A stretch of 34,584 bases of DNA from Ionaspis alba (taxonomy: Eukaryota). The notes under the pieces are model-generated. The model was not told the origin of the DNA. It was given only the letters and a program-made list of their open reading frames with translations, and ran no database searches. Position 1 is the stretch's first letter. Each line of letters begins with the position of its first letter. The stretch lies in the NCBI GenBank assembly GCA_964255285.1, contig CAXUUL010000084.1, forward strand, positions 1 through 34,584. Reading direction: 5' to 3'. Below are positions 3,112 through 33,925 of the stretch, in pieces. The position numbers and the translations under genes were made by a program.

Positions 3112-4983
3112 TCAGATCTTGACTTCAGCAGGCAGGCCAACCTCTAGCGGATCAACCCCCTTCTGCAATTCGCTCTTGCCAGGCATATTCCCCCTTCGCA
3201 TCAATTCCGCACACTTCGACATAATCGGATCCATCTGCATACTTGCGACAGCCACAATTGTCTCTCCCTTAGCATAATAAGCCGCGAACTTACCCTCCTC
3301 CGGCTTTCCCTTCAGCACAAGCTCATCCCAGCCGTTCGGCGTGTTGCCACAATACCTGAGCTGTGACCCAAGCGCGGACCAGAACACAGGAATGAAAGGC
3401 TTGGGCTTCGAGGAAGGAGACGCGATGGCAGTACCGACGCTGCGCCCGGAATTTTGCGCAACGTTCCAGTGCTCGATGCGGGTCAGACAGCCGTTGCCGC
3501 CAGGGCCATGGTATGGGTAGGTGGCGATATCACCGATAGCGTAGACGTCCTTAACACCCTCGACTTCGAAGGACTCGTTGCATTTCAGAGAGCCGTCCTT
3601 CTCGAGCTGGATTCCCTTCGCCTCCTTCAAGTAATCAGTGGCAGGGGCAACGCCAACACCAAGGATGACGAGATCGGCTTCGAGTTCTGTGCCGTCCTTG
3701 AGGTGGACAGCGCCAACGGCAGATGAGTCGGATTTGGAAGGGCTGGCCTTGTCGACACCGGCCTCCATTTTGAAATTGACGCCGTTCTTTTCGATAATGG
3801 TGCGGAAGATCTCACCGACCTCGGTACCCATGACACGCTCTAAGGGGGCCTTTTCCATGCCAACTACAGTCACCGTATTCTCCTTAGCAAGGGCATTGGC
3901 GACTTCCATACCGATGAAGGAGGAGCCGATGACGACGATTCTCCTGCCCTTCTTTTCGCCGACAGCTGAGAGAATGTTTTGCACGTCCGAGACGGTGCGA
4001 AGGACGAAGATGTTCTTGAGGTCTTTGAAGCCAGGTAAGGGTAGCTTCTTGGGGGCTCCGCCTGTGGCGAGCACGAGTTTGGTGTAAGGGTAGGATTTAC
4101 CGGACGCGGTTGTGACGGATTTTTTGGAGAAGTCGACGGAGGTGACGTCGTCGTTGATTGTTTTAATGGAGGCCGAATCGTACCATTCTTGTGGGCGGAG
4201 GAGGATCTTGGAGGAGTCGGGGATAAGGGCTTTGGAGAGCTTGGTCCGATCGACTGGGAGGTAGGCTTCATGGGAGATGAGAGTTATAGGGGCTTTGTAG
4301 CCGTGCTCGCGGAGCGCGTGGAGAGTTCCCATTGCTCCGCTTCCGCTGTAATGGGGAAGGAGGTCAGCGAATGTAAGAGCTGCTTAGAACAAGTTTCTTG
4401 GCTCACCCTCCGACGACAACCACCGACTCTGGACCTGAAGCCGAGCATTTGTGATTGGCAGATCTTCTGCTTGCCTTAATTGTAGCCTCCTCTCCCTTTA
4501 TGTAGACTCCTTCACTCTTCTCAATGATGTCGAACTTGGCCAGAGGGTCAAGGGCTGGTGCGTCTTCAACGTCTCCGGTCCCAACATTAAAGCAAGCTAA
4601 CTCAGGGTTAGCGGATGGCTTGTACAATAGTTGTTCGCTCACGTACCTCCATGCCATGCACAGGTTAGTCTCCCATCTGGGGTAAGTACACCATTCTTTA
4701 GAGGTGCTCCATAATGGGTGCAGTTTGAGCTCATAGCATGAGTCTTATCCCCCAGCTTCACCAATAGAACTTTTCCGCCTTCAATACCGTCAACTTCGAC
4801 CTCACGTTTCTCACCATTCTTTAAGTCTAGAGCAGACAATCCTTTGAGTTTGTATTCTTGCGTCATGATTCTTGCTGATATGCTAAATGGGGAACTGCTT
4901 CTTGGTAGAAAGGGCGACTGTGATAGTTTCCTGGTGAAGAATCGAAAGAAGGGGGCTGAATACGAGAGGGAAGGTGGTGGCAT
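3112..4983 (-). CDS. AIF-like oxidoreductase (N-terminal Rieske 2Fe-2S domain + FAD/NAD(P) pyridine nucleotide-disulphide reductase), 3 exons
   Basis: Exons 4983 (or 4866)-4647, 4596-4407, 4345-3112. Rieske motifs CTHYGAPL and CAWHGACF; Rossmann motifs VVVGGGSGA and VVIGSSFIGME; YAIGDIA; RIEHWNVA; PVFWSALG. Start codon is ambiguous between two in-frame ATGs. Confidence 0.9.
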
Positions 4984-7165: not shown

Positions 7166-7785
7166 CGTGATCAACTTATGGCTTCAGAGGTTGCAGCAAG
7201 TTCACAATTGGTTACTAGGAGCGGAGAGAATGAGCTGCCGTCCATCTCATTTGTGCGATAGTCGAAGAGGATATAGCTCAAGCTCCATAGGTAGTTATCA
7301 TTGAGACGGAAATGAGGCATTTTGAATGCAGGGTCAGAGATCCGAGAAGGTGGGTAGCTGAATCGCCATCCGGTGAATGCCGTAGAAAAGGTTCCCCAAT
7401 TATTGCATGAACTTCTATTTGTCCGGTATTCTATAAATACGTACATAGAGCACAGTTTTCTCGGAGTTCTATCTAATTTGTGTATACATCTCTACAGCTC
7501 CACAGTACTGCTATCATGTTGATGACCATGAATGCCAAAAGGAGGTCTGTCCGCGTCACGCCTTCGTCTCGAGAGTGGCTTATGCTAGGCAACCAATCCA
7601 GTCTCAAGCAATGAGGTACTGTACCCAATGTGTGGTTCTATAGCACAAGTCTCGAACCATGACGAACTATTGCTTTCACACTGCGCCTCTCTCATGACGG
7701 CAACTCAAATATGCCTTGCAGCGGCTGCTCAGGCATCTCTTGGCGCTTCCGCAAAATCCTACGAGTCCCTCGCTCCGATTAGGTG

Positions 7786-9264
7786 TCAATATCCCTCTTT
7801 TGCAAGCATATCTAGACGTTTTAGCTCCTGTACCAGACCAGGAAGACGGAGACCAACCAGCAATGCTTAGGTAGAACGCTACCGCGTTGAAACTTTTGCA
7901 TGATTTATTAGACGTGCATTGGAAGGTTCGTGCTCGAGAGCCAACATACGTTCTTTTATTGCCGGTCAGTTCCCACACGAGCCAACGAAGCCGGTTCGTC
8001 CAATTGATCAAGTCCAAATGACTGACGCCTACTAGTGTGCCTTTGTAGGACGATTCTCCACCCCACCGGCTACTGGCCACACTGACAAGTCCGTCGTTGG
8101 GACCTTCTTCTCTTGTAACGATTCTGTGAGACTGGCGAAACGCCGACCACAACGCTGGCTCGAATTTTGCGCCATAAGAGAAGTATCTAGGTAACATTTA
8201 GACCTTGCTACGAAGGAAATGAAGCGGAGATCGTTAGGCATACCGTACGCCTTCACGATCGGGAGTCCTGGGATTGAAATCCTCTTTCATGAATTGCCGA
8301 GTCAGTTGACTGAAAGCCCCCGTTTCTATTTGGAGCAATTTCAGCGTCTTATACAATCTTGGCAGATAACTTGCTGCGGATCATTTAGTACTCATATCTC
8401 TAGCACTGGCAAGCCTCCACTTACGTCCGATGCGATCGAAAACGTAATCTGCGAATGCAGAACCTTGAGAACAGGTCAGTGCTGTCACGTTTGTTCAAAA
8501 CCAGAGGTCAATTACCACGATGAGGTGTTGCAATTGTTGTCAGGGAAAGTACATCAACACCAGGAGGCTTGAGTCGACTGATCATGTAACGAGAATCGAG
8601 TCCGCTGATCAATCAAGTCAGCTTCTGCGCAAGATGCCTCCTCGGATCAGCTAACAGAGCCATACCCCTATTCGGTATGAGCATTGGATATGTGTCAAGC
8701 GTAAGCAGCACATACCATGCTATGTCTGTAAATATTCAGCGAACCGAAGATTGACAGCAGTTGCGGCTTTACTCACGCAATAATATTGACGCTCTTACCA
8801 TGAGCTTTCTTGAGTATGTCGTCACTCAGCTTCGCCGCTCGCTCCTCAATAGACGCCGATGATGGTACAGACGCAGTGATGACCTCGATACCATTTGCTC
8901 TCAAAGCTTCTGTGATACCTCTCCAATAGTGGATCTTAGGGAGGAAGCGCCCACCAAGACTGAGCTCGTCGAAACCAAGTAGACCATGGGATAGAATAAT
9001 AGGATTCTTTGGTGTATCTACACGGGTAATTAGACCGAGAAGCAATACGACTATGAAAGCTTCCAACGTACTGTAATTAGCACGAATTGCAGCATACTCG
9101 TCCACGATATCATGGCCGATTCCAGCCGTACGTGGGCTCACGACATCCTCCAAGCTCCTTCCAGAAGATTGGTAGGCTCGAGAAGAATTCGAAGGGACAA
9201 CAGGACACTTTGACAGAACAATTGACAGAGACAGTCTTGGAAGCTTTTGTGACCATGAAATCAT
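7786..9264 (-). CDS. Tgl2-like triacylglycerol lipase (alpha/beta hydrolase), about 10 exons including 10-nt and 2-nt microexons
   Basis: Spliced product has PKNPIILSHGLLGFD, YWRGITEAL, SIEERA, VNIIAHSMGGLDSRY (AHSMG nucleophile elbow as in yeast Tgl2), SLTTIATPHRGSAFAD, NDGLVSVASSRWG, SHLDLINW and ends DMLAKEGY* at 7786. Start at 9264 is tentative. Confidence 0.88.
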
Positions 9265-9948
9265 AATCGCATTTGGGAATCCGTGGAAGCTTGTGACCCT
9301 ATACCCATACAAGCACCGCTCTACCACAGCAAGAGGACATCGGTTTAACACAGAGCAATACGAAATTAATCAATAAATGCTTATTGCGAAAGCCGTAATG
9401 ATGCTTCCATGGATATCGTGCTGCCCAATTCCTGAAATTTGGAACACTACGTAGTTCAGCCCTGTAGCTTCCTAAGCACACAAATGCTTGGATGTATCGA
9501 ACGGTTCATCCTCCAAGTCCAAGATAATGGCCGTCGCCGTTAAGCCTAGCAATGGGGCATAGAGGCTATTTGTGATCATTCAAGTAGCGCATGGGATGCA
9601 GATCGTTTCTGACTGATGTTCGAGTGGATATTGTGCCTCTAGATTGTACTTGCTCTTGAAATTGACACCATATGCAGCTGCCATGTTAACACAGAGCTGG
9701 CGCTTTCCGTGGGACACGATGCCAATGCCCATAGAGTTAATTCATAACTTGAAGCAAAGCTTCAACTTCTTCTTTTCTTCACATTGCTTCTTGGAAAGTC
9801 GATAGCATGTTCTTGATTGCTGGACTGGCTGATTCTTGGACTTCTATCTCTTTCCAGTCTTGTCTTTGCCTTTCTTCATCGTTTCCAGTAGCAACTAATT
9901 ATACCGCATGCTATTGAAATACTTATACTCGTGTGATCAAACTCCATT

Positions 9949-12900
9949 ATGAAGTCCTATGGGAGCCATAGCCTACTAAGGTCACCTTCGTACCCTTTAT
10001 GGCGGGATGCCTCCAACTCCGAACAAGAAAATACTACCTCTAGCGCTAACGCCCCACCGAAAGGGTTGTACAGGAACAAGTCATCGAGCTCTCTGTTCTC
10101 CACTGGCTCCGTTATTGCACGACCTTTGCAAGTCAGGAACGAGAATGTCATTCCTTCACGTACAATCTCACTATCGACGCTCGATGTGATGGTGGAGTCT
10201 ATGATAGATGCGAGCTCAAGAAAGTCCTCCGGACGTGTGTCTCACAAGTCAAGCTGGGACACGGATATCCTGTCACCACTACAAGAACAACTTCGACCGT
10301 CAACGAACATGGAAAGAGATACTCAAGAGGACACAACCAAAGCAAGATCTGTAGAGAACGTTCGAGAGATTGCTATGAGTTACCCCCACGGTTTAACGCC
10401 ATTTATTAATCTCTCTTCGGCAGCGGACGCGGGGAAAAGACCAGGTCAAGGTCAAATGGATACGGAAATACTGACTCACAAGAAACAGGCGGAAGAGGCA
10501 CACCCTTTTCGCAGATGGATGAGTACTCTTCATCGACGGAAGCAATATCAACCCAAGACTGTGCAGCCCCGAGTGGAACGATGGGCTCTGGACGACTCCG
10601 ATATGCCTCCCACAGAAGATGTAGCGTTAACTGACCAAAGGATATCGCGACACAAGAAATCCTCATCTTTCGCTTCCAGTGGCTTTGTCACGGCAGTTAA
10701 GTCAGCTAGTATAAGTCTAGCAACACTCAGCGTGGCTCCTCATTCTAGAAAGGCTCGGCGATCAACTCTCATTAGAAGCAGTCATAGAAGCAGCAGACTG
10801 TCGCAGAGCCTTTATCGTCCTTCGATGGATGCGAGCTCGTCTTCTGTTCGGATCATTGACGAAGCAGCACGAGAGCGAGCGATCAAGCGTCGAAGAATCC
10901 TGGAAGAACTGTTGAGCACTGAGGAAGGCTACGTAGCAGACCTGAAGGTTTTGGTCAACGTGAGCTAGATTAAGAGGCTTAAGTCATGATAATAATTGTG
11001 CTAATAGCCACACTCAGGTATATTTCACTCTTCTAGCCACCGCAACGCCTGTCTCGGAAGGCAAAATAAGTCATATTCATCATACCATCACGGAGATCCT
11101 CATCTTGCATGAACAGATCCTCGAGAATATTCGTACTGTCCTTCAGAGCTCCGGGAAGAGCCTTAGCTCTCGTGATGGCAATGCAGCCCGGAAAGCTCCA
11201 AGACACATTCGCTGGCACAGTCTAGAGTATCCATCTGCAAATGACGCTATTGTGTTTCCGGAGCACGCAAGACGCTCTCTCGATGTACCAAAGCGCGCCT
11301 CATCTCGGGACAATGTTCCAGTTTCGGAGCCAGAGGAAGCAGCTGAGATTGCACACATATTTGAAAGTGTGGTAAGTGGAGTAAATTAGTGCACACATAA
11401 CTTATACTGACTCATACGATAATTTTAGATGGCTCGCTTCTTCGTTTACGAAGAATACGGAGCTAGCTATGAGTCGATGCTATATGACATGAACCTGACT
11501 TCAAAGAACATTCCGAATTGGCAGGCTTACGAACGTGGCATAGAGGCGCTGGCCAACACATTGGCACCCGACAATAGTCGGGAGGATGGTAATAGAAAAG
11601 GACTTACTTTCGGGGATCTGCTGATCAAGGTACAAAGTTTTCTACCCAGGACATTCTCAGAATCTTACACTGATGATCGTAAAGCCCATCCAGAGAGTTT
11701 GCAAATACCCTTTGTTGTTCGCCGATCTTTTCAAGAATCTTCCAGTGATTGATGGTCCAGAGTCACATGCCACGGTGGAAAAGGTGCTCTTCAGACTCCG
11801 TGAGACGGCCTTAGAAATCAACAAAGCCACCAACGACGAATATACCAGAGAGCGGATACAACGATGTTGGAGCTTGCAAGACCTTCTCATATTTCCTGAT
11901 GCGGTGAAGCCTTCCTCACCAAACCACCGAACAAGATCAACCAAGGCTAATCCAAGTTTGACTACAGACTACAGCCCCATTCACTGTGAGAACCTTGGGA
12001 CACGCCATACTCTGCGGCGTTCTGCATGTTGCATATCAATCGAAACAAGGCGTTCTTGGCGGATATACGCTCTGTGCACTCTTCAAGTCATGTCTCATTC
12101 TAGCCTTGCCCGTCGAAGATGGTCGCCATTACAAGATAGCAGCAAGCATCAGTCTGACCGATCTGCGCATGGAGAAGACTGACAATGGGAAAGGTACCGC
12201 ATGCATAAGATCTTGTTAGACGAACGATGCTTAATCTTTGCAGGTTTACAATGTCACACGGCTCTTTTTTCATGGAAGATTGTATTCGAGTCAGACCAGC
12301 AAGTCTTCGAATTAATATGCAGTGCCTGTACGCCAGAAGAAGAGAAACAATGGAAGAGCCATTTGATGGAATTATCCGCTGCAGAAAGCCAAAATCAATT
12401 TGAAGAATATCCCATCTCACCGACGAGATATTCCACGCTTTATCTGAGCATCAGACCAATTGGAAGCATTCTTGGACAGCCTGGAACATTGGCCCGCCGG
12501 ATCTCAATCCAACGAGCTGCTACCCTAGGGCCCAGAACCAATGTATGCCAAGTCTTCATCAAGAACACACATGCCTTGCGAGATGGCATAGACTCTTCCA
12601 CCGCGGGGAATCTCGTTGTCGGACGATCTCAATCGCTGCTGACAACTAACCGGATACCAGTCCTTGCTCCAAAACGAATAGACCGAATGAGGATGGAGCA
12701 CGACCTGACCAAAGTCTGGACCAAGGAATTACTCCCCTATCCTGGGATTGGTGGCAGCCGGGGAGACCATACACACATTATTCGAGCCTCTGCCAGTTCG
12801 GTGATGCGAAAATTGAGTAGGGCCAGCATCGCGAGCGGCTTTAGCAAGCGTTCCACGAGCTTTGCTAGTCTCACCAACAGCAAGTTCGACGAGATACATG

Positions 12901-13244
12901 AGTCATCTGCAATCATCGGAAAGCTTGACACCTCGAACGGGGTGAATTCCATGCCCCTTCTTCCCATTAGCGAGAATAACAAGATTGATGCTCAAGGCGC
13001 TTTGAGCTTTCGTTCTATCGTTCTTCCCGAAAGAACAAGTTCGCGGAAAGGAACACATCCAAAACGCAAGCTTGGTGCTGGTAGAGAGAACGCGGCAGAT
13101 TTATTTGTGGAGCCTGACCTTGGAAAGGCTGTTGCCAGACAGTCTAGCAATACGCAAGAACGAACACTTAGGAACAGATGGAGTAGCCCGATTTCCTTGA
13201 TCAGAAGCTTTTCTACAGAAGGAATGAAAGGTTTCTTCGCCTGA
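9949..13244 (+). CDS. Rho guanine nucleotide exchange factor (DH domain followed by PH-like domain), 6 exons
   Basis: Exons 9949-10959, 11018-11371, 11429-11629, 11685-11903, 11968-12193, 12244-13244. DH signatures RRRILEELLSTEEGYVADLKVL and LTFGDLLIKPIQRVCKYPLLFADL; PH-like LGHAILCGVLHVAY and FSWKIVFE; Ser-rich termini. Confidence 0.88.
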
Positions 13245-15605: not shown

Positions 15606-16140
15606 CCTAGAAGGTCTTGACGATTGTGTCTGCCAGTATGGAACAAAGAAGGTTTTCGGGAAGCGGATGCATCTACGGACATGAATATATATGGTCATGG
15701 ACTCTACCCTTACTGGATCTTACCGTTTAGAGGTATCTACATTGAATTGAGTCTTGCAAGATATTGGTGGAACTGCCATATGCCTTCAGGTACATCATAT
15801 TTCATTTATGTCTTTGCCCTTATCAACCAAATATCTCCTCAGACTGAGAGGCACGTCACGCCATTTTTTTCCCATTCGAATCGAAGAGATATCAAACAAC
15901 TAGATTCCTGTATGAGCTCCTTTGATTTACAGGCAAAGGCCGTTGGGGCATTGACTTTCGGGGTCCGTGTTTTGGTCGTACCCCCGCATACCCTAAATGG
16001 CGTTATCCAAGCTTTCGTCTCATCTTCAAGAAGCCCGCGCAATATCCGCCTTGTCCATTGTACCAAGAATGCAAATGTGATGCAGCAAAATCCGAATTGG
16101 TTAGAATACTGAAACCCAATTAGAGCTCTTAACTGCAATC

Positions 16141-18738
16141 ATGCCATCGTATATGTGTGGCTCCACTCGCATTTCTCTCTCTGTTGCCGACCTTGCAAAG
16201 TCAACAACTGCGTCTGCGATCCACAAAGTGGGACCCGAAGCAGCGTTGCTGATCCAGAATGTAGCAAACGAGCTGAAGAAGGATATAGCTGAGAGAACTT
16301 TACCAGAGATTCCAATTCTTACAGAAGAGCAATGGCCCAGTCATCTTCGTTTCATTGGTGCAAACCAGGATATGCCGTTCCTCATGGTACAAGCTGGAAA
16401 GGATCTCTTCAATCCAATTTCTTCGCGAAGATCGAGCCAGGTATTGTCTGTTAGCTCTACTGTAGAGCAGACTCACGATGGTGGCTCTCCGCAATCTTCT
16501 GACACATCTTTTTCGAGCTTGACGACTCTGGAGAGTACAACAGAGGTCAGTCCCGAAGACGAGATTAGCCTCTTGATACCATCAGACGTACAAGCTGATG
16601 GCATCAAGTCGCAGTCACCTGTACAGGTCGCTGGCGGAGTTCAAAAACCTGTGGTTCACTCAGAAGATCGGACGAAAGCTAGCAGCTCGGAGAGCATAGC
16701 ATTGAACACCTCTTCCGTAATCACGTCTCCATGCCAGACAAAAGAGCCAGAACTTCGTCGCTCTTCAGTACCGTCAGCACGTCTCGTTCCAGATCGTCGA
16801 CCCACCTTCTGTCCCGAAATGAAACCGCAAGCCCTCTGCCTCACGGTCCAGCTCTCCAAAAAATCCTTCCTCCGAAAACGCAAATCCAAACCTCTTGATG
16901 TCAAGATTGACATCTACTTCAACGGCGGGCTCTGTGCTTCTGCCTATGTTCCCGAACGTATGTGTTCAGAGTCCAATGTCGCGGACCTTACGCAACGCTT
17001 TGCAGGACGAAGAATCGAACGTCTGCTGGAGCGGCCATGGATCATCATACCACCTGGTCAGACACCTGCTGGAACGTTGCGCGAACACAAACGAAGCAAA
17101 AAGGGCGGATACAGCGGCGCTCTGCACAGGTGGACTGCTATAAACGAGCTGTTAAGAGAAGAAGCTGAGAAGGAAGGAAGGAACAGATGGGGTGATCTGT
17201 CTGTACTGGGTGATTATCTGGATAGTCTTTCCAGGTTGAAGATGCCGAAAGAAGTCGAAGATTTACAAAAGGCTGGTGGTCCAAAGTTCGGTGTGCTTGA
17301 CGTTGTTTTGACGACGGGCCATGGGAAAAAGTACGAGCCAGATTATGGATATCTCTCAGAACCGGCTCCCATGAAGACGAGCGAATTCAAGATACCAAAA
17401 CAAACTCTCGGACGCACGAGTCCTAGTCGTCTTGCTGGGTCACACACACACAAGCCAAGAGTCGCGCAACGCCCAAAGACATCTGCAGATGCCGAAATCA
17501 TCGCGAACGGTCTCTCCTACCTCACACCTCATGAGAGCTGTGTACCAGAATCCGCACAAGGTCAGAGATCCGAACATTCTGACATGGGTGGTATTGTTTC
17601 AGTTTCAACCCGCGGTGGCAACTTCCAGCCTCCAGATATTCCTTCGACGGCGCCTTCCGCCGTGCGACGACGCCAGTCCGGATCTATTCGAACTTCGGGC
17701 ACGACACCTACGTCCAGCCAGTCCGCTAATGTGATGGACGAGGACTCTCTAATACCATTTGGAAGCACACCACAAGCAAGCCCTCAGGATACACTGGTAG
17801 TGCCGACCTCGAGTGGCTCATGGACAGCTGCACAAAGCCCAACTCCAGTGCCACTTCGACACAGATTGGCAATGCCTGCGAGTAACATACCAGCCCTCAA
17901 GCGAGGAACAACGAACTTCCCGTTGACACCCCACCCGCCTTCATCATCCCTCCCAGGCAGCAACGGCCGCTCCCACTCCATAACCAAAGACACCAACAAC
18001 CGCGCTCACTCCCCGGGATGCCGCTTTACAAAGCGTTCTACTCCAAGTAAACCTGCAAACATTCCGCAAAAGCGATACAAGGGTTCTGACGCCACAGCTT
18101 CTGCCGAGGACGAAGAACTCGAGCGTCAACGTAAACGCTCCCGTATGCATGGCGAGCTCGTACTCACGAACAAAATGACGCTTGCTGAGGAAATTGCTGC
18201 CATCCAGGAGCAGGCTCGCGAAGAGCTGCTACCTGCTCAGAGCCACACAACAACTACTACAAACGAGCCTGGTTGCCGCAGGTCGTCGTCCGAGCAGATT
18301 GGACGGCGAAGCCAGTCTTGCGCTCCAAATAATCTCGCTCCACGGACAAAAGTCATCGTTCTACGTTTGTCAGCGGCTCGTCTGGCGACTTTTGTAAAGC
18401 GCCCGACGGGACCTGGTGCAGAATTCACTAGTACATCACCCCCAATCTCGCTCCACGCTCCCCCATCGGTGTCATCTGCCGCTTCCCTTTCAGCGCCACT
18501 GTCAACTCCTCGCAATACCAGCACGCCTAAATCGAAACCTCTCCCCAAGACTCCGCGCTCAAGAATACCACCTGCATCACGCGCAACCTATGTGCCGTCG
18601 ACTTGGCGGCCACCGCCGCTGAATGAGGATTGTGTCATTACGTATGCGCCGGATGCGATTAGGCAGGTCAAGGCAGAGAGGTCGGGCTGGTTTAAAGAGG
18701 TGGGGGTGTTGGTGGGGGTAAGGTTTTTGATTGGGTAG
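16141..18738 (+). CDS. Uncharacterised intronless protein, 865 aa
   Basis: 2.6-kb uninterrupted ORF with globular-looking blocks (LCLTVQLSKKSF, DVKIDIYFNG, RFAGRRIERLLERPWIIIP, FGVLDVVLTTG, C-terminal CVITYAP...GWFKEVGVLVGVRFLIG) separated by S/T/P-rich low-complexity sequence. Confidence 0.8.
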   Translation: MPSYMCGSTRISLSVADLAKSTTASAIHKVGPEAALLIQNVANELKKDIAERTLPEIPILTEEQWPSHLRFIGANQDMPFLMVQAGKDLFNPISSRRSSQVLSVSSTVEQTHDGGSPQSSDTSFSSLTTLESTTEVSPEDEISLLIPSDVQADGIKSQSPVQVAGGVQKPVVHSEDRTKASSSESIALNTSSVITSPCQTKEPELRRSSVPSARLVPDRRPTFCPEMKPQALCLTVQLSKKSFLRKRKSKPLDVKIDIYFNGGLCASAYVPERMCSESNVADLTQRFAGRRIERLLERPWIIIPPGQTPAGTLREHKRSKKGGYSGALHRWTAINELLREEAEKEGRNRWGDLSVLGDYLDSLSRLKMPKEVEDLQKAGGPKFGVLDVVLTTGHGKKYEPDYGYLSEPAPMKTSEFKIPKQTLGRTSPSRLAGSHTHKPRVAQRPKTSADAEIIANGLSYLTPHESCVPESAQGQRSEHSDMGGIVSVSTRGGNFQPPDIPSTAPSAVRRRQSGSIRTSGTTPTSSQSANVMDEDSLIPFGSTPQASPQDTLVVPTSSGSWTAAQSPTPVPLRHRLAMPASNIPALKRGTTNFPLTPHPPSSSLPGSNGRSHSITKDTNNRAHSPGCRFTKRSTPSKPANIPQKRYKGSDATASAEDEELERQRKRSRMHGELVLTNKMTLAEEIAAIQEQAREELLPAQSHTTTTTNEPGCRRSSSEQIGRRSQSCAPNNLAPRTKVIVLRLSAARLATFVKRPTGPGAEFTSTSPPISLHAPPSVSSAASLSAPLSTPRNTSTPKSKPLPKTPRSRIPPASRATYVPSTWRPPPLNEDCVITYAPDAIRQVKAERSGWFKEVGVLVGVRFLIG

Positions 18739-23782: not shown

Positions 23783-25450
23783 CTACTCCTCCCTTTCGAT
23801 GACGGCTGGAGCCTTGAGAGTCTTCCCCTTGAGAAAATCGAGGCCTTCGCCACCCTGACGCTCTGTTAATGTTGATGTCTAGCAAAGGGGCTTGTGACAC
23901 TTACATAACTGATCAGAGGCGAGATCTCCACACCCGACTCATCAACCCCTGTCTCGCTTTCCACTACACCACCAGCGCTCTTAATCCACCGTGTGCCTTG
24001 GGTCAGGATGTCCTTCTTACTCGTATCTGGGTCATCTTCCCCAGTTCCCTTAGCGTTCTTGAGGGGAGAGAACTCGTCCTCCCTCTTCACCTCCATGGAT
24101 GCAAATTTCTCCAGCTCAATCAGCGGGAAGACGTCGAAGACGAATTGCTCGAGCTTGATGCCATTTGGCTTGTCAGGCTTGACAGTCTCACCATTATCCG
24201 TATTTACATACGGGATCTTCTTTCGTGCCACATGGTGTGGGAGCTTGTGCGCCCACTCCTCGATAGTCTCCAAGAAGCGGAACGAATAGTAGTGGTTGAC
24301 AATATTTGCAGCTCGGAATTTGAGTACGTCTGGTTGCTTTGGGTCCATTGCCTCTGCAGTGGCCGCGTCGATCTCCGAATACTCTACCACATCTGGCTTG
24401 CCATTCTTGAGGAGAATCAAACCGACGGACTCTTTAGCGCTTCGTTTACGAACCACCTTGGTGGCGATGTCCACATCTTTGGAGGCGGCAAAGCCGATGA
24501 AGACGGGATCTGCAACCTTGACTAGGCAATTGTCCACGCAGTAGGCATGAATGTGCTCTATGCCACGTTTCCGCATATCCGTCCGGACGTTTGAGGTAAG
24601 CAGAGCCTGATAGATGCCCCCATTACCATCAGGCGCAACGGCTACCTGCAGATACGTATCAGCCTAATGATTTTGCCTGGAGTTTAACAACAAGGCCGTA
24701 ACATACCTTTGCCTTGCTCTCCAGTAGAATTTTGCCATCGTTCGAGATGCACGGTAAAACCCCTTGCTCAAAGATGACCACGTCGTCTCTCCCCAATCCG
24801 AAGTAGTTATGCTCCTGAAAATACTTCTCTGTGGGTCCTCGCGTTGGCCCGCTGGTCATGACATACCATGGCACAACCACATTCTTCTTGCCATGCTTTT
24901 TCTCAGCCAGTTGTTGGATCTTACAGATCCTCTCAGCCTGGATCTGAAACAGTGACTTGCCACTGGGTAGACCAATATTGAAACAGCCCTTAGGAGCTGA
25001 ACTTCCAAGGCGAGTGCCCTGGCCGCCAGCCATTAGGACCACAGCCACTTTGCCTTCGGCAATTAGATCTAAGCCTGATTGATACCATGACTCGATGTCT
25101 TCAGATTTGGAATCCAGAATCGATGCAACAGCAGATTCAGGTAGAGGTTTCAGCTCTGTCTCTACTTCCTTGTCGGAATTCTGTGGTGGATGGAGGGCCT
25201 TCTCCGTAATTTCATTAATGTACTTGGGATCAATTGTGGCTAGTTGATCGTAAAGACCTTCTTTTCCCGTCGTGTCCAATTCGTCGTAGAAAGCGAAAAC
25301 GTGGCCTTGCTCGGCTTTTTCGTATTTGGCCTTCAGCTCTTCGAGGTCCTCCTTACTGGGCTCTTTCGCTGGCGCGCCTCCTTGCTTGGGCGAAGTCAGG
25401 TTGAGCTTCTCCATTACGGTGTTCATGCTTTCTTTTAGGGCCGCTGCCAT
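23783..25450 (-). CDS. UAP1: UDP-N-acetylglucosamine pyrophosphorylase, 3 exons
   Basis: Exons 25450-24707, 24645-23905, 23854-23783: [71 protein letters not shown]; stop TAG at 23785-23783, just before the gap. Confidence 0.96.
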
Positions 25451-25782
25451 GACTGGAGAGTCAAGAATGGAATTTGGTACGGGTGAAGAATATACTGGTG
25501 GATCTTGTAGTCGATCCTTCTGGTATGAAAGTCGAGCGAGGATCTGCGAAGTTGTCCCTTATTGGAATTTATGAAAGAGCATAGAACCCCTCAGATGTAG
25601 TATCTCGATCATAGCCCCACCTCCATCAATTCCGGTGAGCGCTACTAGACCATTGTTTATGCATGTATTCACATATACGGGAAGGTTTATAACGTGTACA
25701 AGAATGAAGTACGAAATCTGTGCTTCAGGATACTAAGCTTGGGTATCATGTGAGAAGTAGAATTAAAAAGCATGCTGCGGCA

Positions 25783-27306
25783 TCATCGCCACCTATCACG
25801 GTCTCTGTACTCTTTCCTTCGATAGTCTTCGCTCCTATCGCTACTTCTGTCCCTTCTCCTACCATGCTGCGTTACTGGCGAGCGTCGTCCGCGATGATGT
25901 TCCTGCCTTGGACTTCGACTTCTGCTGTACCGATGTGGCGGCGATCTTCGGTCCTCTTCTCGATTGCGTCCACTTCGTATGTCGTCTTTATGAAACACCA
26001 TGCCATATCCATTGGATCGATGGCCCCCAGTCTCCATAGCTCTGTACTGTCGTTTTTGCTCAAGACCAGATATGCCACCGAATCCACCTCTGTGGTTAGC
26101 TCGTTTGGAATTTGTTGCTGTTCGCCAGGTGTCCGATAATCTGGAAACCTGTAACACCTGGTGAGCAACGTTATTGGAGCAGGTTCCAATCCAGACTTAC
26201 ACTTTGTGAAAAGTCAACATGAATACGATGGTCATCTATCAGGACTCCTTGCATCTTGAAGTATGCCTGCTCACAGTCCTGCTTATTCTCAAATTCAATA
26301 AATGCATACTGTAGGCTATCACCCGTCCTCTTGTCGCGTATTACTTCGCATGACAGTATCTTCCCGAAACGACTAAAAATGAGATCCAAGTCTTCGTCTG
26401 CGCGGAGAGTAAGCCTGGGATAGTTTATAAAATGTTTTCTGCTGGATCTACCTTGTGTAACGGGATTGAGTTTGCAAACAAACAGCACGTTCTCCGGTGG
26501 CTTGACTTCGGCAAATGGTAGATCTCCAACCATTTCCAGAGTTAAGGCTTGTGCCCTAGCCTCCCTCTCTCGACGCAGCTTCTCCACTGCCTCCTCATCC
26601 GCATTATCGTCTATTTCCTCATCATCCGCGATACGTACTGTGGCCAATTGAGCTTTCGACGGAACAGGACTCTCTGGAGGCTCGATGAGGTCTGACGGGT
26701 CCGGAAACGGATCGTCCAATATGACGGTGTGACGGATCCGAATGTCCTTTAGCGGACGCCCTTTCTCGTCAACAAAAGCGTCGTTGATTTTCTCCAGCGT
26801 ATCAAAACCCTCGACAACCTTGCCAAAAATAGCTGCTTTTCCGTCCAGGTAGTCAAGATTGTCCCCGAGAGTGATGAGAAATTGACTGGCAGCAACCCTT
26901 TCATCTGGGTCTCGAGTCCCCGCAGCAGTCGCCATGCTGACTGTGCCTCTTTCCGCATGTTTCAGCTTGGGATGTAGTTCTGCAGTGTATGTCTTCTTCG
27001 AAGGACCCTGCAAGATCCCCCAAATTGATGAGCCCCCATCGCTGTCCTTCGAATCCGGGCCAATAGGATCTCCCGTCTGGAAAGAGAAGTTCTTCTGAAC
27101 GCTATGTATGGGGGAGAAGTTATAGTATTTGATTTTGCAGAGCTTTAGGAAGCTAGATGACCATGAGATCTTAGTGTTTCAAATTCAGCAATGCTTCAGG
27201 ATGTGGGGCAGGTCTGAAGGACTCACTTTTCACAGGACTTCGGGGCATAATCAACCAGAAGGTCGATAACAATATCACCGATTGAGGTCTCGAGTATCAC
27301 AGACAT
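25783..27306 (-). CDS. PPIL4: Cyclophilin-RRM peptidyl-prolyl isomerase-like 4 (PPIL4/Rct1 type), 4 exons
   Basis: Exons 27306-27227, 27153-26452, 26397-26201, 26148-25783: [64 protein letters not shown] ([43 protein letters not shown]) and an RS/RD-rich tail. Confidence 0.94.
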
Positions 27307-30035: not shown

Positions 30036-31655
30036 ATGAGTCGTTACCATAATGCCCACGAACCTAGTGGCGAGTACTATCGCTTCCCACCACGACCGCT
30101 ACCCATGAGCATCACGCGAGCCACGCGTGATTCCGTACGAAACTTTGCAATCGCGCAGCGGAACTCTCATACGAGTCCAAGTCGCGAGTCGGATTCGGAC
30201 AGGCAATCGACTCCTAGACGCCGAATAGCGGTAGCGGTACGTCAAAAGCCAGTGTTATCGTAAACTTCTTCCAAAAGATCATTCGATGCTGATGGCTTTA
30301 CTACGCTAGTGTTCGCGTTGCCGCAAAAGAAAGATCAAATGCAGCGGCGACCAAGGAAACGGCGGTTGCGTGAGCTGTAAAAATGCTGGAACAGATCCAA
30401 ATCAATGTCAATTCTTGAGAGTACGTGCCCAATTCCTATCTGACTTTTCCAGGAGACTGACGGGTTTGATCTTTAGGTGAACTCAGACTCTTTGAGCTGC
30501 ACTATGCCAGCCAGCACAGAATGGCCATATTGGCCGAACGGTGGAGGCAACAACACCTCAGGATCTAATTACAATGCAAGTATCGGCCAGTATTCTTTAT
30601 TTTTTTTGTTATGTTTTCCTGGTTGATCTACACTCTCTCGTGGACAGTCATCAGGATCATATTCAACTGGCCCATATTCATCCATATCTCAAAAGGAATA
30701 CTGCGGAACCTATGGTGTCAATCCAAACGACAGTGTATACGATACGTATGGCATGCAGTCTCCCCAGTATCTGCTGCAAACCCCAGACTCTCAAGTATCC
30801 ACAACCAACTACGGTCAACCAGAACCAACCCGCCAATGGCAGTCGACCGGGCCATTGAATCGGTATAGCATGAGTTTCGACAACGAGCTCCCATCCCGCT
30901 ACGCCACATCCACAGTTCCCTACAACCCCTCTCTCATGTCTCCTAACCTCACCCTTCCGGACAATAATCTTTTTCCAGCCATGTCTTCCCTCGCCAACTC
31001 TCTCCCGACCGCAATCCCGCCCTTGAGCAGCGACCGCGTGCTCCCTAGCCCACGCGCCAGTAACATTCCATCAAATGACAATCCCCTCAACAGCAACACC
31101 TTCAACGACCTTCCCAACTTGCTCACGTCCCAGCCCTCAAGCCACAAGAACACCGTCCCCTGGGGTACTGAGCGCCTCACCACGGGTGGTTCTACAGCCT
31201 CCACTAGCACGGCCTCATCGGCACCAAGCACGCACCTTGCGGCACTCAGTAGCAAATCCTCCGCGTCACCTCCAGAGAGCCAGGAGACATCGGCCTTCGG
31301 ATACATCCCACTGGCTAATAGTCCCGCGACAGTCGCCGCCACGCCGGCAACCGAGTACACGCTCACACCAACTGCAACCTCAACGCCAACACTGGCAAAC
31401 ATGCCTGCTAGTAGCAACTATGCGGACTCGATGGCACGTGGCTCGCACGGTGTGGGGCATTTGTATACGTACAGCTTGGGTACGCAGAGCAAGAGGGATA
31501 TTAATGGGACCGGGGAGGCGACGCTGTTAAATGGGCAGCCGTATACGACGCTTAGGCATGTGCAGTCCAGAGCGGATAATGGGTATGGTGCGAGGACGGG
31601 GAGCGAGGAGGTGGTTAGGGGCAGGACGAGTGTGGCTACTGGGGGCAGAAGATGA
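30036..31655 (+). CDS. Zn(II)2Cys6 transcription factor, about 470 aa, 4 exons
   Basis: Exons 30036-30236, 30310-30420, 30477-30575, 30648-31655: RRRIAVA|CSRCRKRKIKCSGDQGNGGCVSCKNAGTDPNQCQFLR|V followed by a S/T/P-rich low-complexity region. The zinc-cluster exon is too short to appear in the ORF track. Confidence 0.88.
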
Positions 31656-31937
31656 TGCAGGCATAGTGGATGGTTGGGACCTATGAAGGTGATACGAGGG
31701 ACTGAGATCATGGAAGAAGGCGAGTGTGGGTGGGTCCACAGGTAAGTAGGTGAATGAGACTGTCAGTACAGCGGCCGAACGAATCTACAGCGGGAATCCG
31801 GTTGCAATGCTCTCGGAATGATAGGAATCCAGGCTGCGCCGGTCGCTAGCTTGGGGAGGCAAAAGTACGGGTGCGTTGGATGAGGTTCCCAACTTTCATC
31901 TTTCGGATGTGGAGAACTGCGTGTGGCTGCACGGCAA

Positions 31938-32037
31938 NNNNNNNNNNNNNNNNNNNNNNNNNNNNNNNNNNNNNNNNNNNNNNNNNNNNNNNNNNNNNNN
32001 NNNNNNNNNNNNNNNNNNNNNNNNNNNNNNNNNNNNN
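31938..32037. other. Assembly gap (100 N)
   Basis: Run of exactly 100 N; hides the 3' end of the MFS gene. Confidence 0.99.
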
Positions 32038-33925
32038 CCTCCCCACCATTCTTGCTCTCGTCTCGTCTCTTTCGAAGCAGCAGGAACCACAGTATCATTG
32101 ACATGAGGAAGAGAGCTGCGCCCAGAACATTGAACGGAAGACCCAACCATATCCCTCCTCCCTTGATCATTCCGGCACTGAACAAGCCTGCCACAATGGG
32201 ACCAGCACCCATCATACCAAGAGTCTCAGCAATAGCCATGACCGAGTATAGCTTAGCAACCTCGTTCTGTTTGACGAACGAAGTCATCAAAGCGCGAATG
32301 GACGCTCCTGTTCCACTGCCAAAGGTCTGGAAGAAAAGACCAATGATGAGAATTGGCACGGCGGGAGCGAAACCTTCTATGAAAAGTCCGATGGCCACCA
32401 TCAACAGGCCGACACAAGCAAGGATGCTGTCTTTCTTCATAGCGCTGTAGCCCTGTCTCTGGAGTAGGTAAGAAGAAGCGGCAGGTAGTACTATGAGAAG
32501 GCTGATGATATCAATACCCGATTGGAAGGACCAAATGTAGGTTGCCCGAGCTAAGGTCCACTCGTACCGTTTGGAGATGTATTGAAGTAGGAGATTGTCA
32601 AGAGTGTTTTGAGCCATTCTGATGGGAAACGTAAGCACGAGGATGATAGTCCGCCAATCTCTCACCAGGAATGCTGATTGCTCCAAGAAGATTAAGAGCA
32701 TGGCCTTGATTTGAACTAGATAGCCGTCTTTGGTGCCACTCCCAAACAATATGAACAATCTTGAATCCGAAGTAGTTTGAATGCTTGCATCATCTGACTT
32801 ATCAGGCTCATCGTCGAGCTTGGCTTTAAGACTCTCCGGTAATGCCAGAGCCAGTGGTATGCCCAGTACCTGAAGCCCAACGCCGAGCGTTATGGGAATC
32901 CATGGATCGCGCTCCATCAACTTTGCACAAATCGGCGGCGTAATGAGTGTGCAGAGTCTCATCACTGCAGTAAAGCGGAAAAATACACTTGCTCTGTGAA
33001 CAAATGTGAGTGCATTGCTTCACAATGTTGGATCTTGGTCGCTCTTCCACTGGGAAGAGATACGGGAAGCTCCACCTGATGAGTACTGAAATAACAGAGT
33101 GTGCTGGACGAGGAAAATTGGAACCAAATCTGAGTTTTCATGTGACAAAAGGACCACATTGGTTCACTGGTCCCAGAGCCATGAACATGCCATGGTGAAT
33201 TGGATTCGAAAATGATAAAGCAGGGTTCCTAGGACAACGGATAAACAACCTTACATACCTCTCAGCTTGGGGAGTGACATCTGCAATTATCGTATAGAAT
33301 AACGCTATACCAACCATTAATCCGCCACCAAAAATATTAGATATTGCTCCTAGCCAGACCAGCCGTATTGGTATAGCATACGGGAAAGCACCTATACGTC
33401 GTATAAGCTCATTGGATTAGAACCTGGATTATAAGACCAAGACTTACAAACAGCATATATCCACGCAGCCTCGATCCAGGCGGCTGTCAAAACCATGACA
33501 AAAATCCATTTGCGTCCATATCTATCTGCCAGCACGCCAAAGGGCACAGCAAGAAAAACGCCGGGCAGATAATCGAAGAAATCCATCCAGCCCTTTAGCA
33601 GGGCCAACTCGGTCTGTACAGAATCGATCTTGCAGTACTGTTCATCCACACTCCCACCTGGCTCGATGCGAGTAGGATCATTGGCTTCGTAGAACCTGCG
33701 GCAGTAGATACTTTCGAGGAGGCGTGTCCGAGGAGGTGCCTGTAAAATGTTCGCGACACTTACCACCGCGGCTATTGCGACGATAAGAATCAAGACCTTA
33801 TGCTGGATGTCTTGGGCTCGGAGAACTTTGACAGGGGTTTGCTCTGAATCGTCGGCGGTACGAATCCTATTGAGTAAGGGGGATCTCTCGTCACTTGGAT
33901 TCAGGTGGTCCTCTTCATTCGCCAT
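32038..33925 (-). CDS. Major facilitator superfamily transporter, 3 exons, C-terminus runs into the gap
   Basis: Exons 33925-33448, 33391-33259, 32993 to gap. N-terminal ERSPLL, luminal loop ESIYCRRFY...CKIDSVQTELA, MFS motif A GVLADRYGRK, IIADVTPQAERA and about 12 hydrophobic segments. Confidence 0.9.

What the first reader, a model, noticed from the sequence alone, without database searches (positions are those of the whole stretch)
8604..8777. Lipase catalytic motif is assembled from a 10-nt exon and an obligatory 2-nt exon (GG)
Seen on the minus strand: ATT GC|gtgagt..(8776-8726)..tacag|A CAT AGC ATG (8725-8716)|gtatgt..gctcat..aatag (8715-8668)|GG (8667-8666)|gtatgg..gctgac..atcag (8665-8605)|C GGA CTC GAT. 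Only by including the 2-nt exon does the product read AHSMGGLDSR, the nucleophile elbow of Tgl2-type lipases. Both flanking introns have their own donor, branch-like motif and acceptor (48 and 61 nt). Skipping GG frameshifts immediately after the catalytic Ser; retaining the 48-nt intron hits TGA; the 61-nt intron is not a multiple of 3. Known: exons this small are very rare, gene finders miss them, and complex twin introns (stwintrons) are described in Pezizomycotina, including in a putative lipase gene whose orthology to this one I cannot confirm. Inference: the two introns must be removed sequentially, and skipping could work as an on/off switch through NMD.
Basis: partly seen in the sequence, partly recalled or inferred. 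Interest (0 to 1): 0.8.

Follow-up and report, generated by a model that had tools for sequence, protein, structure and literature searches.

The report
Conserved two-base exon in lipase gene
A fungal lipase gene spells part of its catalytic motif with a genuine exon only two bases long, an arrangement kept in many distantly related moulds and lichen fungi that regularly misleads genome annotation.

Summary
On the minus strand, a Tgl2-like lipase gene (CDS 9264-7786, 10 exons, 333 aa) has a 10-nt exon (8725-8716), a 48-nt intron, the exon GG (8667-8666) and a 61-nt intron. Only this reading gives AHSMGGLDSRY.

It is not chance. 39 of 80 related metagenome loci (26 of 49 lineages) show the same AG|GG|GT island. 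One of them is Penicillium decumbens. Both flanking introns are complete, and their interiors have diverged to shuffle level. 38 loci have no intron here, and none has only one of the two introns.

No RNA run was listed for this organism. In Aspergillus fumigatus, an uninterrupted ORF found on 425 public contigs carries HSMGG. Every NCBI genome model I aligned lacks exactly HSMG. This is indirect evidence that the exon is included in mRNA.

The published "stwintron lipase" (lipS) is a different gene, and this arrangement is not a stwintron. Sequential splicing is plausible but untested. The NMD switch has no support.

Exons of 1-2 nt are already known from plants and Coprinopsis, so this is a new, deeply conserved member of a known kind. 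Its practical consequence is widespread misannotation of the catalytic serine.

The parts
7786..9264 (-). Coding region of a Tgl2-like lipase gene. It has 10 exons and 9 introns of 46-61 nt, all GT..AG, and a 333-aa product. The start codon at 9264 is the first in-frame ATG and is not otherwise verified.
   Evidence: The model was built. The product aligns with orthologue P0002 in one gap-free block of 283 residues, 222 of them identical.
8777..9017 (-). Exon 2 (241 nt). It ends ..GKSVNIIA with GC of the Ala codon and contains the oxyanion-region motif SHGLLGF.
   Evidence: It is 65-82% identical to the 80 loci and gives a weak Lip_C hit.
8726..8776 (-). Intron 2 (51 nt, GTGAGT..TTACAG).
   Evidence: It is present in 25 of 26 lineage representatives and absent in L073, which is Penicillium decumbens.
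8716..8725 (-). Exon 3, a 10-nt micro-exon ACATAGCATG. It supplies the last base of the Ala codon plus His-Ser-Met, and the Ser is the nucleophile.
   Evidence: The Ser aligns with the serine of the GHSQGG elbow of the solved lipase 1CVL.
8668..8715 (-). Intron 3 (48 nt, GTATGT..GAATAG). Its branch-like motif GCTCAT is at 8682-8677.
   Evidence: Homologous introns are 45-59 nt long. A CT[AGC]A[CT] motif lies 9-12 nt from the 3' end in 21 of 26 representatives.
8666..8667 (-). Exon 4, the 2-nt exon GG. It gives the first two bases of the first Gly codon of HSMGG.
   Evidence: One search shows it is the only canonical decomposition. AGGGGT is invariant in 26 of 26 representatives. The island is seen in 39 of 80 loci.
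8605..8665 (-). Intron 4 (61 nt, GTATGG..GATCAG). Its branch-like motif GCTGAC is at 8622-8617.
   Evidence: Homologous introns are 47-79 nt long. The motif is found within the last 45 nt in 24 of 26 representatives, mostly 9-14 nt from the 3' end.
8516..8604 (-). Exon 5 (89 nt). It starts with C, the third base of Gly1, then reads GLDSRYMISRLKPPGVDVLSLTTIATPHR.
7950..8186 (-). Exon 8 (237 nt). It carries the probable catalytic Asp (GPNDGLVSV) and His (VSHLDLINW).
   Evidence: In orthologue P0002 these motifs align with the matching stretches of 1CVL (second stretch). The Ser-Asp-His triad of yeast Tgl2 is described in PMC11889585 (passages).

Best explanation
This is an ordinary, functional nuclear gene for a Tgl2-like, bacterial-family-I-like lipase. 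Its nucleophile-elbow codons are cut by three short U2-type introns within 14 coding bases. That leaves two internal micro-exons of 10 nt and 2 nt.

The GG exon is real and, I infer, constitutively included. Each flanking intron is recognised as a unit by its own donor, branch site and acceptor, which is the intron-definition mode usual for 45-80-nt fungal introns. The acceptor of intron 3 and the donor of intron 4 are only 2 nt apart, so two spliceosomes can hardly work there at once. The two introns are therefore probably removed one after the other. Either order gives a valid substrate for the second step. I mildly favour the upstream intron first, because it is transcribed first.

The arrangement is old. 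It is present in Eurotiomycetes at DNA level and in lineages nearest to Lecanoromycetes and Dothideomycetes. It has been lost several times, always together with its neighbours, as expected from loss through reverse-transcribed mRNA.

Shown: the anatomy, the conservation and the coding necessity. Indirectly shown: inclusion in mRNA of relatives. Inferred: constitutive use in this organism, sequential order and the mode of loss.
For: Anatomy and unique decomposition:
-.

Gene model:
- All nine introns are GT..AG and 46-61 nt long.
- The 333-aa product aligns without a gap to P0002 over 283 residues, 78% identical.
- The Ser of HSM aligns with the elbow serine of the solved lipase 1CVL.

Conservation:
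- One search matched 378 stretches, of which 188 are relatives. The best 80 were kept.
- 39 loci show the island. These are 37 full parses, L033 with a GC-AG intron 3, and L066, which is cut inside intron 4.
- 38 loci have uninterrupted coding sequence, and 3 are cut before the island.
- At lineage level, 26 of 49 clusters have the island, 21 lack it and 2 are undetermined (plus L033).
- AGGGGT is invariant in 26 of 26 representatives.
- Intron interiors have median pairwise identity 0.55 and 0.52, against 0.51 and 0.50 for shuffled partners.
- Donors, branch motifs and acceptors are kept in both introns.
- L073 is 100% identical over 83 residues to a Penicillium decumbens protein.

RNA-level evidence in relatives:
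- P0223 is an uninterrupted 339-aa ORF seen on 425 Logan contigs.
- It is 100% identical to the A. fumigatus NCBI protein P0246, except that it carries HSMG.
- All 9 NCBI proteins aligned with it lack an intact elbow. Eight lack exactly HSMG. The ninth, P0218, keeps HSM but skips GG and the following residues.
- A genome model can delete those 12 nt only if intervening sequence is there. The uninterrupted ORFs must therefore come from spliced RNA.

Losses:
- The tree of 46 rows needs at least 5 changes of state, and starred branches force 3 of them.
- No locus has intron 3 or intron 4 alone.
Against: - No RNA data exist for this organism. No RNA holder was listed, so inclusion here rests on homology and coding logic.
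- The mRNA sequence alone cannot say which Gs are kept. ATG-GG-CGGA could also be written as a 109-nt skip that keeps the first G of intron 3 and the last G of intron 4. Only the conservation of the inner island argues for two introns.
- I could not see the genomic DNA of A. fumigatus. Its exon structure is inferred from the 12-nt deletion in annotations and from the Penicillium locus.
- In the cluster of P0002, some ORFs (P0258, P0260, P0261) read through HSMGG on contigs of up to 11.5 kb and stop at the intron-5 position. These may be partly spliced RNA or genomes without introns 2-4. That cluster is therefore weaker evidence.
- The order of splicing is untested.
Confidence: 0.88

Rival explanations
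1. One non-canonical intron. A single ~109-nt intervening sequence (8714-8606, ends UA..CA) is cut out, keeping the first G of 'intron 3' and the last G of 'intron 4'. There would then be no 2-nt exon.
For: It gives the same mRNA letters (my reading). Read aligners would report it this way. No RNA or lariat data were available to exclude it directly.
Against: - It needs non-GT/AG ends in every lineage.
- It does not explain why the inner AGGGGT is invariant in 26 of 26 lineages while the intron interiors are at shuffle level.
- It does not explain why a branch motif sits 9-12 nt upstream of the inner AG in 21 of 26, or why a GT donor follows it in 26 of 26.
Confidence: 0.03
2. Regulatory switch. 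Inclusion of GG is regulated, and skipping it sends the mRNA to nonsense-mediated decay. Alternatively, skipping both micro-exons (12 nt, in frame) makes a catalytically dead isoform. The arrangement would be conserved for that purpose.
For: - Skipping GG shifts the frame, while skipping both micro-exons keeps it and removes HSMG.
- The fragile arrangement has persisted in 26 of 49 lineages.
- Intron 4 donors are weak at position +5, with G in 11 of 26, against 23 of 26 for intron 3 and 25 of 25 for intron 2.
Against: - No transcript evidence for any skipped form. All 51 proteins that lack exactly HSMG are NCBI genome predictions. None is an ORF from assembled contigs (with the source columns).
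- At least three lineages lost all three introns without losing the gene, so the arrangement is dispensable.
- Persistence is also expected under neutrality, because only a precise loss is tolerated.
Confidence: 0.1
3. Stwintron. The two introns form a nested spliceosomal twin intron like those described in Pezizomycotina.
For: The two splice sites are nearly juxtaposed and consecutive excision is likely. Stwintrons exist in the same fungi (PMC5639578).
Against: In a stwintron the internal intron interrupts a splice motif of the external one, and nothing stays in the mRNA. Here both introns are complete before any splicing and 2 nt remain. The published lipS case is another gene family.
Confidence: 0.02
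4. Artefact or pseudogene. An assembly error or a decaying gene only mimics a split motif.
For: Nothing specific.
Against: - A second assembly of a public run is identical over 7700-9300 at depth 121. It is probably the same source, so it is not independent.
- The same structure is found in 39 other loci.
- The full-length 333-aa product has the triad motifs and no frame problem.
Confidence: 0.01

Closest known systems
Ultra-short conserved micro-exons of plants: the 1-nt exons of APC11 and VPS55 (PMC8831610, passages read)
   Same: - The exon is shorter than a codon and flanked by two canonical introns.
- It is conserved over long evolutionary distances.
- It is missing from reference annotations.
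- Intron-less copies are explained by reverse-transcriptase-mediated loss.
   Different: The kingdom differs, and the exon is 2 nt rather than 1 nt. It lies inside a catalytic motif, next to a second micro-exon of 10 nt, and the flanking introns are only about 50 nt long. RNA proof exists for the plant cases and not for this window.
2-nt exons in the long-read annotation of Coprinopsis cinerea (PMC12230235, passages read: 57 exons of 2 nt in 50 genes)
   Same: Exons of 2 nt in a fungus, whose omission breaks gene models.
   Different: That fungus is a basidiomycete. The passages I read give a catalogue with no conservation analysis. The case here is one gene followed across classes of Pezizomycotina.
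Stwintrons, for example the [D1,2] stwintron of lipS/AN7524 (PMC5639578, abstract and passages)
   Same: - Two short U2 introns lie so close that they must be removed in two consecutive reactions.
- They occur in the same fungal groups.
- They are lost together with no intronic sequence left behind.
   Different: No splice motif is interrupted, each intron is canonical from the start, and 2 nt remain as exon. The host gene is different (Pfam07859 family against a DUF676/Tgl2-like lipase).
Recursive (ratchet-point) splicing of long Drosophila introns (recalled, not looked up here)
   Same: An acceptor immediately followed by a donor (AG|GT) is used in successive steps.
   Different: There the 'exon' has zero length and the introns are very long. 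Here 2 nt are kept and the introns are minimal in size.
Yeast Tgl2 and bacterial family I lipases: 1CVL and 1EX9; PMC11889585 (passages)
   Same: - The (G/A)XSXG elbow, here AHSMGG.
- An HG motif near the N-terminus.
- Asp and His motifs in the C-terminal half.
   Different: Orthology to yeast Tgl2 was not tested here; only a source name says 'Related to TGL2' (P0060). I recall yeast TGL2 as intron-less and did not look this up.

Membership tests
Internal micro-exon of 3 nt or less, flanked by canonical U2-type introns | Both flanking introns have their own donor, branch site and acceptor | tested here: met
   The window has GTATGT..GCTCAT..TAG and GTATGG..GCTGAC..CAG. The same elements are present in 26 lineage representatives.
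Internal micro-exon of 3 nt or less, flanked by canonical U2-type introns | The exon is needed for the reading frame and for a conserved protein sequence | tested here: met
   One search shows a frameshift or stops in every other reading. One search gives a gap-free alignment of the 333-aa product to an orthologue.
Internal micro-exon of 3 nt or less, flanked by canonical U2-type introns | The exon and its splice sites are conserved in orthologues while the introns diverge | tested here: met
   The island is in 39 of 80 loci and 26 of 49 lineages. AGGGGT is invariant, and the intron interiors are at shuffle level.
Internal micro-exon of 3 nt or less, flanked by canonical U2-type introns | The mature mRNA contains the exon | tested here: inconclusive
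   No RNA run was listed for this organism. Indirect support comes from A. fumigatus: an uninterrupted ORF on 425 contigs has HSMGG, while the genome models delete HSMG.
Stwintron (spliceosomal twin intron) | An internal intron interrupts the donor, branch or acceptor motif of an external intron, which becomes canonical only after the first excision. No exon bases lie between them. | tested here: not met
   Both introns are complete in the primary sequence and GG remains in the product.
lipS (AN7524) stwintron-bearing lipase gene | [quoted passage not shown] | tested here: not met
   Orthologues P0002 and P0223 hit Abhydrolase_1, DUF676, PGAP1, Palm_thioest and Lip_C, not PF07859. The paper's description was read.
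Tgl2-like / bacterial family I lipase (alpha/beta hydrolase) | Nucleophile elbow (G/A)-X-S-X-G aligned with that of a solved lipase | tested here: met
   NIIAHSMGGLDSRY of P0002 aligns with NLIGHSQGGLTSRY of 1CVL (E = 1.7e-17). The window's product has the same motif. That this serine is the nucleophile in 1CVL is recalled. The equivalent S82 of LipA 1EX9 is stated in PMC11889585.
Tgl2-like / bacterial family I lipase (alpha/beta hydrolase) | Catalytic Asp and His present | tested here: met
   NDGLVS and HLDLIN of P0002 align with NDGLVS and HLDEIN of 1CVL in a weak second stretch. Both motifs are present in exon 8 of the window. Their catalytic role is inferred by homology.
Tgl2-like / bacterial family I lipase (alpha/beta hydrolase) | Orthology to S. 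cerevisiae Tgl2 and mitochondrial intermembrane-space location | not tested
   The only support is a source's name for P0060, 'Related to TGL2'. No yeast sequence was compared, and location cannot be tested with these tools.

The most novel reading that the evidence does not exclude
The tandem 10-nt and 2-nt exons would be a conserved kinetic gate on a mitochondrial-type lipase. The two introns around GG must be removed in a fixed order. Failure gives either an NMD target (GG skipped) or an in-frame protein without its catalytic serine (both micro-exons skipped). Fungi would use the ratio of these outcomes to tune lipase activity. The arrangement would then have been kept by selection since before the split of Eurotiomycetes, Dothideomycetes and Lecanoromycetes.
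Probability: 0.08. Interest if true: 0.8.

Novelty: new member of a known kind. Interest (0 to 1): 0.6.

Why it matters
1. It is a clean, deeply conserved example of an exon shorter than a codon in Ascomycota. It occurs in genetically tractable genera (Penicillium at DNA level here, Aspergillus by inference). The question of how a spliceosome handles an acceptor and a donor 2 nt apart could therefore be tested by RT-PCR of intermediates, lariat mapping and point mutations.

2. It has a practical cost. Of the 360 database proteins gathered here, 210 break at this site. 51 NCBI genome models delete exactly His-Ser-Met-Gly, that is, the catalytic serine. They include the A. fumigatus Af293 reference protein and models of A. 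flavus, A. oryzae and A. niger ATCC 1015. Such a model loses its hydrolase family hits (P0246 against P0223). The enzyme can then be missed or called inactive in comparative studies.

3. The all-or-none pattern of the three neighbouring introns is a small natural data set on intron loss.

Tried and rejected
- RNA evidence for this organism: no RNA holder was listed. Only two runs of one study hold the stretch, both kept as contigs.
  - X1 is identical and is probably the source.
  - X2 is the same species at low cover. It does not cover 8571-8721, which says nothing either way.
- Whole genome: none is held for this window.
- Earlier notes of this scan: three look-ups, by sequence, words and place, found nothing.
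- Matched pair of genomic locus and transcript among the first 120 proteins and 80 loci: none was found for a micro-exon locus at 93% identity or more. I first took L010 for Pleopsidium flavum because of an identical 77-residue stretch. The exon-2 ends differ, so I dropped that claim.
- The P0002 cluster as transcript evidence: kept only as suggestive, because of the 11.5-kb contigs.
- First attempts to classify annotations by a regular-expression anchor missed most Eurotiales proteins. They were replaced by pairwise alignment to P0223.
- Pfam on single exons of the window gave only a weak Lip_C hit, so family assignment rests on full-length orthologues.
- Literature. No paper on this lipase micro-exon was found with these searches:
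  - 'stwintron'+'lipase' (1 paper, which is lipS)
  - six phrasings of '2-nt exon' (4 papers, of which the 3 listed are not on fungi)
  - 'stwintron'+'nt exon' (0 papers)
  - microexon terms with Aspergillus, Pezizomycotina or filamentous fungi
  - 'microexon' or 'micro-exon' with 'lipase' and 'fungal'
  
  The library lacks most subscription journals. Supplements were not opened.
- Rooting the history (ancestral with losses, or later gain): not possible, because no outgroup locus was available.
Full report
**1. What is in the window**

- exon 2 ends ..ATT GC at 8777
- a 51-nt intron (8776-8726, GTGAGT..TTACAG)
- the 10-nt exon A CAT AGC ATG (8725-8716)
- a 48-nt intron (8715-8668, GTATGT..GAATAG, with GCTCAT 10 nt before its end)
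- GG (8667-8666)
- a 61-nt intron (8665-8605, GTATGG..GATCAG, with GCTGAC 13 nt before its end)
- C GGA CTC GAT..

I built the whole gene. The CDS runs 9264-7786 and has ten exons of 193, 241, 10, 2, 89, 39, 130, 237, 35 and 26 nt. The nine introns are 46-61 nt long and all are GT..AG. The product is 333 aa. It aligns with the closest full-length database relative (P0002) in one gap-free block of 283 residues, 222 of them identical.

One search tested the other readings:
- Skipping GG shifts the frame right after His-Ser-Met.
- Retaining either intron meets a stop.
- An exhaustive listing of one or two GT/GC..AG removals that yield the in-frame mRNA finds only these two introns, in either order.
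- Skipping both micro-exons (12 nt) stays in frame and deletes His-Ser-Met-Gly.

**2. The sequence is sound**

A public run (X1) assembled independently by Logan covers 7700-9300 in one contig at word depth 121 with no difference. It is probably the sample the window came from. It therefore checks the assembly, not the biology. A second run of the same study (X2) holds identical pieces at low depth and does not cover the micro-exon.

**3. What the gene is**

Exon 2 finds hundreds of fungal proteins that their sources name triacylglycerol lipase, lipase 2 or 'related to TGL2'. Full-length orthologues hit Abhydrolase_1, DUF676, PGAP1 and Palm_thioest.

P0002 matches solved bacterial family I lipases, such as 1CVL (E = 1.7e-17). 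In that alignment NIIAHSMGGLDSRY lies on NLIGHSQGGLTSRY, and NDGLVS / HLDLIN lie on the matching C-terminal motifs.

For yeast Tgl2, a mitochondrial intermembrane-space protein, the Ser of (G/A)XSXG with an Asp and a His are reported as required for function (PMC11889585, passages read). The Ser coded by the 10-nt exon is thus the nucleophile by homology. The GG exon starts the first of the two glycines that follow it.

**4. Conservation**

An alignment-based scan of JGI metagenome contigs matched 378 stretches. 188 of them encode relatives, and the best 80 were returned. I read the DNA after the exon-2 match in all 80:
- 39 loci show the island AG|GG|GT. These are 37 complete parses, L033 with a GC-AG intron 3 and a contig end just inside exon 5, and L066, which is cut inside intron 4.
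- 38 loci have uninterrupted GCN CAY AGY ATG GGN GGN.
- 3 loci are cut by contig ends before the island (L052, L053, L062).

I grouped the loci at 95% or more nucleotide identity in exon 2, which gives 49 lineages. 26 have the island, 21 do not, and 2 are undetermined.

In 26 representatives (the window plus 25):
- AGGGGT is invariant.
- Intron 3 is 45-59 nt and intron 4 is 47-79 nt.
- Both start with GT and end with AG in all 26.
- A branch-type motif lies about 9-14 nt from the 3' end in 21 and 24 of 26.
- The intron interiors are no more alike than shuffled controls, with medians of 0.55 against 0.51 and 0.52 against 0.50.

No locus has only one of the two introns. One locus (L073) lacks intron 2, so His-Ser-Met is fused to exon 2 while the GG exon remains.

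**5. Which organisms**

L073 is 100% identical over 83 residues to a Penicillium decumbens protein, so it belongs to Eurotiomycetes. The L056/L065/L067/L072 group is nearest, at 84% in exon 2, to Elasticomyces elasticus, a Dothideomycete. That class assignment is tentative. The window is nearest to an unnamed protein (92%) and, among named ones, to Sticta canariensis at 82%, a Lecanoromycete.

At protein level, genome annotations break at this very site in several other groups: Xylona (Xylonomycetes), Peltula (Lichinomycetes), Candelina (Candelariomycetes), Sarea (Sareomycetes), and many Aspergillus, Penicillium, Aureobasidium and lichen-fungus records. This is indirect evidence for introns there.

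I built a maximum-likelihood tree of 46 rows. The HSMGG columns were removed. L033, L047, L052 and L053 were left out because they had fewer than 150 aligned residues. The tree needs at least 5 changes of state, and well-supported branches force 3 of them. A 12-row clade without the introns contains L020. L020's nearest named protein is a Cadophora model at 92%, and I recall Cadophora as a Leotiomycete. Another 5-row clade without the introns is nested among intron-bearing rows. The root is unknown, so I cannot say whether the arrangement predates all Leotiomyceta.

**6. RNA-level evidence**

None is available for this organism. The best indirect evidence comes from Aspergillus fumigatus.
- P0223 is a 339-aa uninterrupted ORF recorded on 425 Logan contigs.
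- It is the representative of a cluster whose named members are A. fumigatus and close relatives.
- It is 100% identical to the NCBI protein P0246, except that P0246 lacks His-Ser-Met-Gly.
- None of the nine NCBI proteins aligned has an intact elbow. Eight of them, the Af293 reference XP_746728.2 included, lack exactly HSMG. The ninth, P0218 from A. lentulus, keeps HSM but skips GG and the following residues.
- A genome model can drop those 12 nt only if intervening sequence is present. The uninterrupted ORFs must therefore come from spliced RNA that contains both micro-exons.

Similar uninterrupted ORFs exist for Penicillium- or Aspergillus-like organisms (P0128, P0200) and for the window's closest full-length relative (P0002, P0253, P0254). 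In that last cluster a 25.5-kb contig gives an ORF that is identical through ..NIIA and then runs into an intron (P0252). Other ORFs read through HSMGG and stop at the intron-5 position on contigs of up to 11.5 kb. Those could be partly spliced RNA or genomes without introns 2-4, so I count that cluster as suggestive only.

**7. Consequence for annotation**

- 144 have HSMGG intact.
- 6 do not reach the site.
- 210 break there: 71 stop or diverge after ..IIA, 51 delete exactly HSMG, 38 have other joins, 31 have HSM followed by a wrong join, and 19 have HSM and then diverge.

Many of the 210 are raw ORF calls on genomic contigs, which would stop at any intron. All 51 exact deletions, however, are NCBI genome annotations (source columns). 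The deleted form loses its hydrolase family hits. Some records do carry the intact motif, among them A. niger CBS 513.88 XP_001395151.2, P. chrysogenum and P. brasilianum. The exon may therefore already be annotated in places. I could not see their exon tables.

**8. Mechanism**

Each intron is a self-sufficient short fungal intron. The acceptor of the first and the donor of the second are 2 nt apart, and the branch site of intron 3 lies about 13 nt from the donor of intron 4. Simultaneous assembly of two spliceosomes there is hard to picture. Consecutive removal is the natural expectation, and either order leaves a canonical substrate. This is inference, because no intermediate was observed.

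Intron 4 donors are weaker at +5 (G in 11 of 26) than those of intron 3 (23 of 26) and intron 2 (25 of 25). I note this without an explanation.

**9. Comparison with what is known**

The 'putative lipase' with a stwintron (lipS, AN7524) is an alpha/beta hydrolase fold 3 protein whose [D1,2] stwintron splits a Pro codon (PMC5639578, abstract and passages). It is a different gene, and the present arrangement fails the definition of a stwintron.

Exons of 1-2 nt are known:
- Conserved 1-nt exons of plant APC11 and VPS55 are missing from reference annotations, and intron-less copies are ascribed to RT-mediated loss (PMC8831610, passages).
- 57 exons of 2 nt in 50 genes appear in the long-read annotation of Coprinopsis cinerea (PMC12230235, passages).
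- A 2024 paper states in its abstract that functional microexons had not been described in filamentous fungi before its Trichoderma case (PMC11121469).

My searches found no paper on this lipase micro-exon. The library lacks most subscription journals.

**10. Verdict**

This is a real, ancient 2-nt exon inside a catalytic motif, widespread in Pezizomycotina. It is a new, well-conserved member of a known kind, not a new kind. The regulatory reading remains speculation.

Noticed in passing
window 8716-8725 (-); L073:2738-2749: The exon just upstream of GG is itself a 10-nt micro-exon, so the elbow is built from two tandem micro-exons. In the Penicillium decumbens locus L073, intron 2 is absent and His-Ser-Met is fused to exon 2, while the GG exon is kept.
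   Followed up: yes
proteins P0245, P0246, P0231, P0234, P0211: Skipping both micro-exons is in frame (12 nt). 51 NCBI genome models do this and so lack the catalytic serine. They include A. fumigatus Af293 XP_746728.2 and models of A. oryzae, A. flavus NRRL3357 and A. niger ATCC 1015. The shortened A. fumigatus protein loses its DUF676, Abhydrolase_1 and PGAP1 hits.
   Followed up: yes
L033:1055-1243: In this locus the intron before GG starts with GC (GCACGT..TTGCAG), which looks like a GC-AG variant of intron 3. The contig ends 9 nt into the next exon.
   Followed up: partly
26 lineage representatives: Donors of the intron after GG are weak at position +5, with G in 11 of 26. The figure is 23 of 26 for the intron before GG and 25 of 25 for intron 2. 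Donors of the intron before GG often have a pyrimidine at +3 (9 of 26). I have no explanation.
   Followed up: no
L012, L015, L016, L017, L019, L021, L023, L029-L031, L036, L038, L041: In these loci, some on contigs of up to 1.6 Mb, the whole lipase gene is one uninterrupted ORF of 330-380 codons, stop to stop, so all nine introns are missing. In the tree they are nested among intron-bearing rows. This fits wholesale intron loss through a cDNA copy.
   Followed up: partly
proteins P0258, P0260, P0261, P0256: These ORFs are identical to the window's closest full-length relative. They read through HSMGG but run into the intron-5 position. One pair lies on contigs of 11,566 nt. They are either partly spliced RNA, with introns 2-4 removed before intron 5, or a genome that has lost introns 2-4 only.
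   Followed up: no
L063 and L070: These two loci lack the three introns but sit inside a well-supported clade of intron-bearing loci. L063 is a 1557-nt contig with an uninterrupted 331-codon frame and could be a transcript. L070 is a 10.8-kb contig whose frame breaks later, so it looks genomic.
   Followed up: no
window 3115-4383 (-), 24662-25558 (-), 26174-27178 (-): Other long open frames in the window hit Pyr_redox_2/Reductase_C, UDPGP, and cyclophilin plus RRM_1. This is ordinary fungal housekeeping context. Long frames at 9937-10965, 12183-13241, 16105-18735, 30627-31652 and 31766-33019 had no Pfam hit at 1e-5.
   Followed up: no
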